Below are positions 3,510-3,955 of a DNA stretch of 64,000 nt, one piece after another; position 1 is the first letter of the stretch, and each line of letters begins with the position of its first letter. The position numbers and the translations under genes were made by a program. The notes beneath the pieces are model-generated. The model was given only the letters and a program-made list of their open reading frames with translations, was not told the origin of the DNA and ran no database searches. Source of the stretch: an uncultured Poribacteria bacterium (GTDB taxonomy: Bacteria > Poribacteria > WGA-4E > WGA-3G); the NCBI GenBank assembly GCA_951813565.1, contig OX638351.1, forward strand, positions 960,001 through 1,024,000, read 5' to 3'.

Positions 3510-3955
3510 GTGATGCCACCCACTACCTAAAGGTAGGGGCTTCGGTTTCATCGCGATTGCGCTGTTTCCGAAGAAACAAGCGTCTTATTGTCGCTCCACC
3601 ATTAGGCCGTTATTCCGTATCAGAACGGTTTTATCAGGTATTGAACCCTGCGCACCCGGGCCTAAATAATAAAGTTTGTGGTGGCGATACAAGGCGTTGG
3701 ATTATTACTTCACAAGCGTTTTACATGAACGCCACCAAGAATAATGATGTTTTACAAGGTCTCACTTGCAACTTGCCATACACCATACGACTGGTGAGGG
3801 TAAGACTCAATCAAGAAATGATTGAGGTCGTATTCTTACCCCGCAAGTTGAAGATATTATACAAAATGTTAGACACAAAGTCAAGTCTTTTGATAAATAA
3901 CCTAATTAGCCGTCTACATCCCACAAGCTAAAGCATGGGATTTGACGGGAGAGTG
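3510..3955 (-). mobile_element. Non-coding IS200/IS605-family derivative with left-end hairpin, promoter, structured RNA and TnpB omega-RNA-like right end
   Basis: Left end CACTCTCCCGTCAAATCCC...GGGATGTAGACGG. Right end has GTGGAGCGACAATAAGACG and AAGCCCCTACCTTTAGGTAGTGGG, which match the tnpB element at 29482-30846. Inserted 3' of TTAA with no target duplication. Confidence 0.88.
3856..3884 (-). promoter_or_regulatory. sigma70-type promoter inside the IS605 derivative
   Basis: TTGACT-17 bp-TATAAT pointing toward the omega-RNA end. Confidence 0.75.

What the first reader, a model, noticed from the sequence alone, without database searches (positions are those of the whole stretch)
3603..3850. 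Unrecognised structured RNA cargo, including a pseudoknot, in place of tnpB
The minus strand, directly after the promoter, folds by eye into three domains. A (3769-3850): outer stem CAACTTGC/GCAAGTTG, inner GGGTAAGA/TCTTACCC and CTCAATCA/TGATTGAG, with bulged ATACGAC exactly complementary to GTCGTAT of the next hairpin CACCA-GTCGTA-TGGTG. B (3679-3737): TGGTGGCG/CGCCACCA. C (3603-3664): three-way junction TAGGCC/GGCCTA with CAGG/CCTG and CCGT/ACGG arms. By eye none of this resembles tnpB sequence, so it is not a simple internal deletion. It could be an extended RNP scaffold, a processing/ribozyme module or captured regulatory RNAs; I cannot assign a family.
Basis: partly seen in the sequence, partly recalled or inferred. 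Interest (0 to 1): 0.8.

Follow-up and report, generated by a model that had tools for sequence, protein, structure and literature searches.

The report
Pseudoknotted leader on transposon guide RNA
A small gene-less jumping DNA element in a sponge-symbiont bacterium makes a guide RNA for the TnpB nuclease, headed by a tightly knotted leader RNA that is in no RNA catalogue and that also precedes many tnpB genes, where it may switch protein production on and off.

Summary
The structures are real, but they are not foreign cargo. They lie in a 446-bp gene-less IS605-type element (3510-3955, minus strand), which inserts after TTAA without duplication and carries its own sigma70 promoter.

C is the first domain of a TnpB omega-RNA: its 3' 126 nt are 91-92% identical to three intact tnpB elements of this genome.

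A is an uncatalogued ~95-nt leader that begins at the predicted +1. Its 7-bp bulge-loop kissing helix covaries (6 of 7 pairs, 74 sequences). It occurs in 71 of 121 genomes of the phylum and heads many tnpB genes. In 23 of 30 tnpB leaders, the first six bases have two complementary sites, about 18 and 11 nt before the start codon (11% in cross-pairs). This suggests a two-register translation switch.

B is a conserved stem of unknown origin, seen only in gene-less copies.

Best reading: a stand-alone guide RNA used by TnpB in trans, with A kept as a protective 5' cap. All function is inferred.

The scan noted this leader before in other genomes, once also on a gene-less element.

The parts
3510..3955 (-). 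Gene-less IS200/IS605-family element (PATE-like), 446 bp
   Evidence: Ends shared with tnpA/tnpB elements of this genome; full-length homologues in relatives span the same limits; limits fixed by a filled/empty site pair of a homologue
3956..3959 (-). Target tetranucleotide TTAA (TnpA target, predicted TnpB TAM)
   Evidence: TTAA precedes 24 of 26 insertion sites; the empty site shows insertion 3' of TTAA with no duplication
3910..3948 (-). Left-end subterminal hairpin
   Evidence: 95-96% identical to the left ends of tnpA-bearing elements in this genome
3856..3884 (-). Sigma70-type promoter; predicted +1 at 3849
   Evidence: 11 of 12 consensus match; 61 of 73 leaders have a match of 9/12 or better, 57 of them at the same spacing +/-1, against 3.5% of random places
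3769..3849 (-). Domain A, leader core: P1 3843-3849 with 3770-3776; P2a 3834-3841 with 3798-3805; 7-nt bulge 3827-3833; P2b 3819-3826 with 3806-3813; P3 hairpin whose loop 3785-3791 kisses the bulge
   Evidence: Covariation; coordinates
3755..3768 (-). Small hairpin after P1. Its 5' arm is a second partial complement of the 5' end; a UUG (3755-3757) stands where tnpB leaders have their start codon, here followed by a stop
3679..3737 (-). Domain B: long irregular stem ending in a loop that resembles a T-loop (3700-3711; label recalled, not tested); origin unknown
   Evidence: Covariation in 14 sequences; follows 42 of 43 leaders of this subtype; no match to tnpB loci
3603..3664 (-). Domain C: 5' three-way-junction domain of the TnpB omega-RNA; its 5' arm corresponds to the last codons of tnpB in full elements
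3510..3602 (-). Omega-RNA core and right end (hairpin 3519-3543, terminal TCAC 3510-3513)
   Evidence: 3510-3635 is 91-92% identical to the 3' ends of three intact tnpB elements; all 26 sites end in TCAC (which selected on this end)
3494..3509 (-). Predicted guide (flank downstream of the right end)
   Evidence: Inference from TnpB architecture; no TTAA plus 10-nt seed match elsewhere in this genome
3142..3519 (-). Host lipoprotein-like gene hit near its start; the right end supplies an in-frame GTG at 3519; the original ATG is probably at 3968
   Evidence: ORF list; the frame is open across the predicted empty site; no Pfam family

Best explanation
This is a non-autonomous IS605-family element that makes a stand-alone TnpB guide RNA. 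Shown by sequence comparison: TnpA-type ends, insertion after TTAA, a promoter, and a predicted transcript of leader A + stem B + omega scaffold (C and core) + flank. Inferred: TnpA from complete copies moves the element; TnpB from the three matching tnpB copies loads the RNA, trims its 5' part and cuts the empty site left after excision, so that recombination restores the element. Domain A is the family's 5' leader. It starts at +1, buries the first bases in P1 and locks the fold with a 7-bp kissing helix. In this gene-less RNA it most likely acts as a cap against 5'-end-dependent decay, so that the untranslated precursor survives until TnpB finds it; B probably adds protection or spacing. 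In tnpB mRNAs the same leader probably also works as a switch: the first bases pair either with a decoy strand (start region free) or with a second copy over the ribosome-binding region (translation damped).
For: Ends, target and empty site. Many copies in relatives: 18-20 in G003, 12 in G020. Intact partners in this genome: three tnpB copies with a 91-92% matching 3' end, the same TTAA flank and D-E-D residues read from the translation, and five tnpA copies, three of them ending normally. Leader fixed at the predicted +1. The leader precedes tnpB in 25 of 80 tnpB loci, 7 of 75 first-round hits and 11 of 43 long tnpB matches in this genome (7 by tool; 4 by eye). Structure kept without a gene: five different kissing sequences occur with the same B and C types. 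Two complementary sites in 23 of 30 tnpB leaders, against 11% of 566 cross-pairs; the two registers lie within about 2 kcal/mol in 17 of 23 (nested energies only). Contigs from RNA libraries of two studies cover A-C. PATEs that encode omega-RNAs used in trans are described (10.1101/2023.03.14.532601, passages; PMC10691335, passages); TnpB trims its own RNA at the 5' side (PMC10278001, passages).
Against: No experiment was run; cap and switch are both inferred from anatomy. The RNA-library contigs show neither strand nor ends, may hold DNA, and one reaches 80 nt upstream of the predicted +1. A plain hairpin would protect a 5' end, so the knot, its near-invariant pairs (A-U 71 of 74, C-G 72 of 74) and the conserved small hairpin may serve a more specific partner. 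Some copies lack the -10 box, the bulge or one repeat unit and are still present. Related sequences are not independent, so the shuffle controls overstate. The second site is weaker in this element and its subtype (50 of 71 at 5 bp or more, against 26%), and 7 of 30 tnpB leaders showed one site. Many tnpB copies have no such leader.
Confidence: 0.55

Rival explanations
1. Decoy RNA: A is the binding site of a regulator (TnpB, TnpA or a host protein) that controls tnpB translation. The gene-less element makes the leader without the gene, titrates the regulator and so changes nuclease or transposase output of complete copies in trans.
For: Fixed geometry with a few near-invariant pairs; the same leader heads tnpB mRNAs; a separate gene-less leader lineage combines with several omega types; strong promoter.
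Against: No partner identified; the three best-matching tnpB copies in this genome have no such leader; the omega scaffold is intact, which a pure decoy would not need.
Confidence: 0.17
2. Extended scaffold: A and B stay part of the mature TnpB particle and tune its assembly or activity.
For: A, B and C are contiguous in one predicted transcript; processed omega-RNAs range from 79 to 466 nt (PMC10278001, passages); B follows 42 of 43 leaders of this subtype.
Against: In tnpB elements A lies about 1.1 kb from the scaffold; A+B pair with unlike omega types; A also occurs with no IS end recognised (14 of 75, crude pattern test).
Confidence: 0.1
3. The folds matter in the single-stranded DNA intermediate of transposition, or are passive relics of a tnpB leader.
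For: The folding strand is also the strand carrying the TnpA end hairpins in the tnpB sense; G-U/G-T pairs cannot tell RNA from DNA; damaged copies persist.
Against: A begins at a fixed distance from the -10 box in 57 of 61 promoter-bearing cases; compensatory changes accumulate within gene-less copies; RNA-library contigs hold it.
Confidence: 0.1
4. A or B is a ribozyme or processing module that frees the omega-RNA.
For: Compact knotted fold at a transcript 5' end; the repeated complement of the 5' end could allow strand exchange.
Against: No Rfam ribozyme match; junction bases are variable, the best 72% conserved; TnpB can process its own RNA.
Confidence: 0.08

Closest known systems
PATEs and stand-alone omega-RNAs of IS200/IS605 elements (Meers et al., 10.1101/2023.03.14.532601; Altae-Tran et al., PMC10691335; passages read)
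   Same: Gene-less element with both ends and an omega-RNA at the right end, needing TnpA and TnpB in trans
   Different: Here a conserved promoter-anchored pseudoknotted leader and a further stem precede the scaffold; the passages read mention no such leader (Meers: 'pseudoknot' 0 occurrences; Altae-Tran: 'UTR' 0)
IS200 tnpA 5'UTR structure with art200 (Ellis et al., PMC4513863; abstract read)
   Same: A structured leader in an IS200/IS605-superfamily element that represses translation initiation
   Different: That leader controls tnpA and works with an antisense RNA and Hfq; here the gene is tnpB, the fold is a three-way junction with a kissing helix, and the 5' end has two alternative partners
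IS605-orfB-I (RF03065), HEARO (RF02033) and RAGATH-18 motifs
   Same: Structured RNAs tied to TnpB- or IscB-encoding elements
   Different: No Rfam match at E up to 1; those are guide scaffolds or lie elsewhere in the element (recalled), while A is a 5' leader
Translational riboswitches with a three-way junction and kissing loops (purine class; recalled)
   Same: P1-closed junction locked by a long-range loop contact, with an alternative pairing over the start region
   Different: No conserved junction bases for a ligand; the contact is bulge-to-loop and fully Watson-Crick; retained with no gene

Membership tests
IS200/IS605 non-autonomous element (PATE) | Subterminal hairpins at both ends shared with tnpA/tnpB elements | tested here: met
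IS200/IS605 non-autonomous element (PATE) | Insertion 3' of a short AT-rich target, no target duplication | tested here: met
   Filled L076 against empty L407; TTAA at 24 of 26 sites. No empty allele of this very site in 39 genus genomes
IS200/IS605 non-autonomous element (PATE) | No protein-coding gene; many dispersed copies | tested here: met
   No minus-strand ORF of 50 aa or more inside the element; single copy here, 12-20 copies in two relatives
IS200/IS605 non-autonomous element (PATE) | Excision and integration by TnpA in trans | not testable with these tools
   Five tnpA copies present; activity not measured
TnpB omega-RNA | Scaffold homologous to the 3' end of an intact tnpB element, ending at the right end with a flank-derived guide | tested here: met
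   91-92% over 126 nt to three copies; C covaries across tnpB-bearing and gene-less copies
TnpB omega-RNA | Binds TnpB and guides cleavage | not testable with these tools
   Needs biochemistry
Small self-cleaving ribozymes (hammerhead, pistol, twister, twister sister, hatchet, HDV-like) | Match to the family covariance model | tested here: not met
   No hit at E up to 1 in the window or in 14 homologous loci
Small self-cleaving ribozymes (hammerhead, pistol, twister, twister sister, hatchet, HDV-like) | Invariant unpaired catalytic bases | tested here: not met
   Junction columns 36-72% conserved in 74 sequences; only the small-hairpin loop reaches 93% at one base
Riboswitch | Alternative pairing over the translation start region | tested here: met
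   Computed for tnpB-led leaders only: 23 of 30 with two sites
Riboswitch | Conserved ligand pocket | tested here: not met
   no Rfam match
IStron (group I intron plus IS605) | Group I intron core at the left part and terminal G at the right end | tested here: not met
   No Rfam intron match; the element ends in C; the defining features are recalled
IS605-orfB-I / HEARO / RAGATH-18 | Match to the Rfam model | tested here: not met

The most novel reading that the evidence does not exclude
Poribacteria IS605 elements carry an undescribed two-register RNA switch: the transcript's first bases slide between a decoy and the tnpB start region, held by a kissing knot and toggled by a protein such as TnpB itself. 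A gene-less lineage has kept this leader, added stem B and moved between omega scaffolds, and acts as a mobile RNA gene that both guides TnpB and regulates its supply in trans.
Probability: 0.25. Interest if true: 0.85.

Novelty: new variant of a known kind. Interest (0 to 1): 0.62.

Why it matters
How cells limit the self-made TnpB nuclease, and how stand-alone omega-RNAs survive without a translated gene, are open questions (PMC10278001 raises TnpB regulation as unresolved; PMC10691335 calls the role of stand-alone omega-RNAs unknown; passages read). This locus offers a testable answer: an uncatalogued, strongly covarying leader with natural compensatory variants in both tnpB mRNAs and gene-less guide RNAs. 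If it proves to be a 5' cap or a switch, it would be a compact part for stabilising guide RNAs or tuning TnpB tools. The carrier element itself is of a known kind.

Tried and rejected
Rfam at E up to 1 on window 1-10000 and 14 homologous loci: nothing on the element.

Decayed coding sequence: tblastx and blastn of A+B against 90 tnpB loci gave best E 0.28 and 0.11; a B profile gave best E 1.8 there; a profile of 30 tnpB zinc-finger coding ends scored none of 33 gene-less cargos. A by-eye likeness between B and that coding stretch is therefore unsupported.

A short peptide starting in the small hairpin: length and frame not conserved by eye; dropped.

Spread outside the phylum: model R2 found nothing in 5 genomes with related tnpB, in 61 genomes of another phylum, in 64 metagenome pattern hits, or upstream of 35 tnpB loci from other named taxa. 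It found 1 of 40 viral-collection loci tested (of 100 pattern hits), itself an IS605-type element. These are samples, not proof of absence.

Empty allele of this site: none in 39 genus genomes.

RNA contigs did not cover 3152-3433 in any of four runs; a hole proves nothing.

One search used a mis-registered C structure and mis-set two kissing pairs; both were replaced.

Rows left out: A1 used 21 of 27 extracted leaders (one bulge deletion, three repeat-unit deletions, one 5'-truncated copy and one near-duplicate with an insertion dropped); A6 used 14 of 30 B copies; A7 used 11 of 14 C copies; 9 of 30 leaders failed the core finder.

The GTAN-to-GTCC change was not among the 30 listed of 41 double substitutions in one tnpB family of this genome.

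Literature: five-term and four-term searches for a tnpB leader found 0 papers; 'Poribacteria' with 'RNA motif' found 0; searches listed no description of it in titles or abstract starts. No supplements were read; motif tables or omega-RNA lists there could bear on novelty.

Full report
Observation. The three domains are present as described on the minus strand and fold as predicted. Rfam has no match on them. Energy alone does not fix the strand, because the plus strand scores similarly for A and B.

The carrier. The region lies inside a 446-bp element, 3510-3955. Its left end is 95-96% identical to the ends of tnpA-bearing elements of this genome, and its last 126 nt are 91-92% identical to the 3' ends of three intact tnpB elements. 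Pfam assigns that TnpB to OrfB_IS605 and Cas12f1-like TNB. A homologue present in G003 and absent at the same site in G020 shows insertion directly after TTAA with no duplication; TTAA precedes 24 of 26 sites. The element is single-copy here but has 12-20 copies in two relatives. It is therefore a gene-less IS605-family element of the PATE kind (10.1101/2023.03.14.532601, passages). The host is inferred to be Poribacteria: 42 of the 80 best tnpB relatives are so named, and the leader was found at those loci.

Domain C. In complete elements the same junction starts in the last codons of tnpB and runs into the omega-RNA core. Across 11 gene-less and tnpB-bearing copies, 96.1% of cells pair and 6 of 14 pairs change on both sides. 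C is inherited scaffold, not cargo.

Domain A. Among 21 close homologues, 97.7% of cells pair; the 7-bp kissing helix has double changes at 6 of 7 pairs, and no shuffle of 500 reached the score. A model built from them matched 71 of 121 genomes of the phylum. A wider model matched 23 of 41, with 75 matches in one genome. In 74 distinct hits, 35 of 37 pairs show double changes; this alignment was fitted to the nested structure, but not to the pseudoknot. Alignment-free, 67 of 71 cores keep at least 6 kissing pairs, against 15% of cross-pairs, with 37 distinct bulge sequences. The bulge is 7 nt in 67 of 71. Junction bases vary, while one kissing A-U pair and the first P2b pair are almost invariant. 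Relatedness inflates all these controls.

Position. A sigma70-type promoter precedes 61 of 73 leaders (3.5% at random places), in 57 cases placing P1 at the predicted +1. The motif ends at the start codon of full-length tnpB in 7 of the first 75 hits and in 25 of 80 tnpB loci, 23 of them named Poribacteria and 2 unnamed bacteria. A sequence-free descriptor found it at 18 of 42 Poribacteria loci, 2 of 3 unnamed, 0 of 35 others and 0 in 116.8 kb of shuffles. In this genome 11 of 43 long tnpB matches carry it (four by eye), but the three copies closest to this element's scaffold do not.

Two registers. In tnpB leaders the first six bases have two complementary sites, typically about 18 and 11 nt before the start codon, in 23 of 30 cases against 11% of cross-pairs, over 18 different 5' sequences. 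In two families of this genome the second site includes the AUG itself (by eye; the window cut these off). Constrained folds put the two registers within about 2 kcal/mol in 17 of 23, and the second register leaves fewer free bases around the start in 16 of 23 (pseudoknot not modelled). This is what a translation switch would look like. Repeated slippage at a hairpin base could also produce such tandem copies, and no trigger is known.

The gene-less lineage. This element's leader subtype was followed by a B-type stem in 42 of 43 rows and by the start of tnpB in none; an exact pattern for it before an ATG found 0 in 112 genomes. The same A+B cassette occurs with six C/omega types, and five kissing sequences occur with the same B and C as here. 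The knot has thus kept changing in a compensated way with no gene to regulate, unless cores are swapped by recombination. B itself covaries modestly and matches no tnpB sequence; its origin is unresolved.

Expression. Contigs from four RNA libraries of two studies lie on the element: 3525-3929 with one difference, 3510-3869 continuing into another flank, 3656-3837 and 3640-3806. They show presence in RNA libraries only, not strand, ends or level.

Mechanism. Most likely the promoter makes leader + B + scaffold + flank guide. TnpB from complete copies trims and loads the RNA (as shown for other TnpBs, PMC10278001, passages) and cuts the empty site after TnpA excision, which retains the element. 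A protects the untranslated 5' end, and in tnpB mRNAs it also gates translation, as a structured leader does for IS200 tnpA (PMC4513863, abstract). Element identity and the leader family are well supported (about 0.9). The cap role and the switch are inferences (0.55 overall). Rivals: regulator decoy 0.17, extended scaffold 0.10, DNA-level fold or relic 0.10, ribozyme 0.08.

Novelty. The carrier is known. The leader is in no Rfam family, and the literature searches did not find it. PMC11701678 (passages) names IS605-orfB-I only as a revised family; 10.1101/2022.10.12.511977 (passages) had nothing on leaders; no supplements were read. Four earlier notes of this scan describe the same leader in other genomes, one on a gene-less element. 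I reached the reading before seeing them, and they are not independent support. Their short texts do not mention the two-register pattern. Verdict: new variant of a known kind, interest 0.62.

Noticed in passing
window 3967-4200: A separate ~230-bp repeat abuts the left end; 10 matches in this genome at 93-100% identity including itself. Nature unknown.
   Followed up: partly
window 3142-3968 (minus): The element sits in the first codons of a lipoprotein-like gene; its right end supplies an in-frame GTG, so the gene may still be expressed from the element's promoter.
   Followed up: partly
G000 C1:247018-247423 and about 7 more; C1:2117804-2118203 and 4 more: Two other families of short gene-less IS605 elements with different, moderately structured internal sequence (z about -1.7 and -1.9), no Rfam match.
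   Followed up: partly
L478 (G000 C1:1387886-1389265) and relatives such as L322, L331: A second, different tnpB leader type with an apparent hairpin-plus-pseudoknot, seen by eye; no Rfam match.
   Followed up: no
26 elements of this family in loci L031-L411: Recurrent double change GTAN to GTCC at six separate places (left end, -10 box, after the small hairpin, both B strands, omega core), often breaking pairs; one such variant also appears in RNA-library contigs. Cause unknown.
   Followed up: partly
L131, L133, L174, L134, L135, L139: Promoter plus leader A without recognisable IS ends in front of host genes; L131/L133 precede what looks by eye like a small antitoxin-toxin gene pair.
   Followed up: no
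L141, L162, L165, L179, L143:1949-2047: Leader A in front of longer (300-400 nt) non-coding cargos of other kinds; no Rfam match for L141, L179, L143.
   Followed up: no
window 1855-5700: SRP RNA, six tRNA genes and a cobalamin riboswitch surround the locus; ordinary.
   Followed up: no
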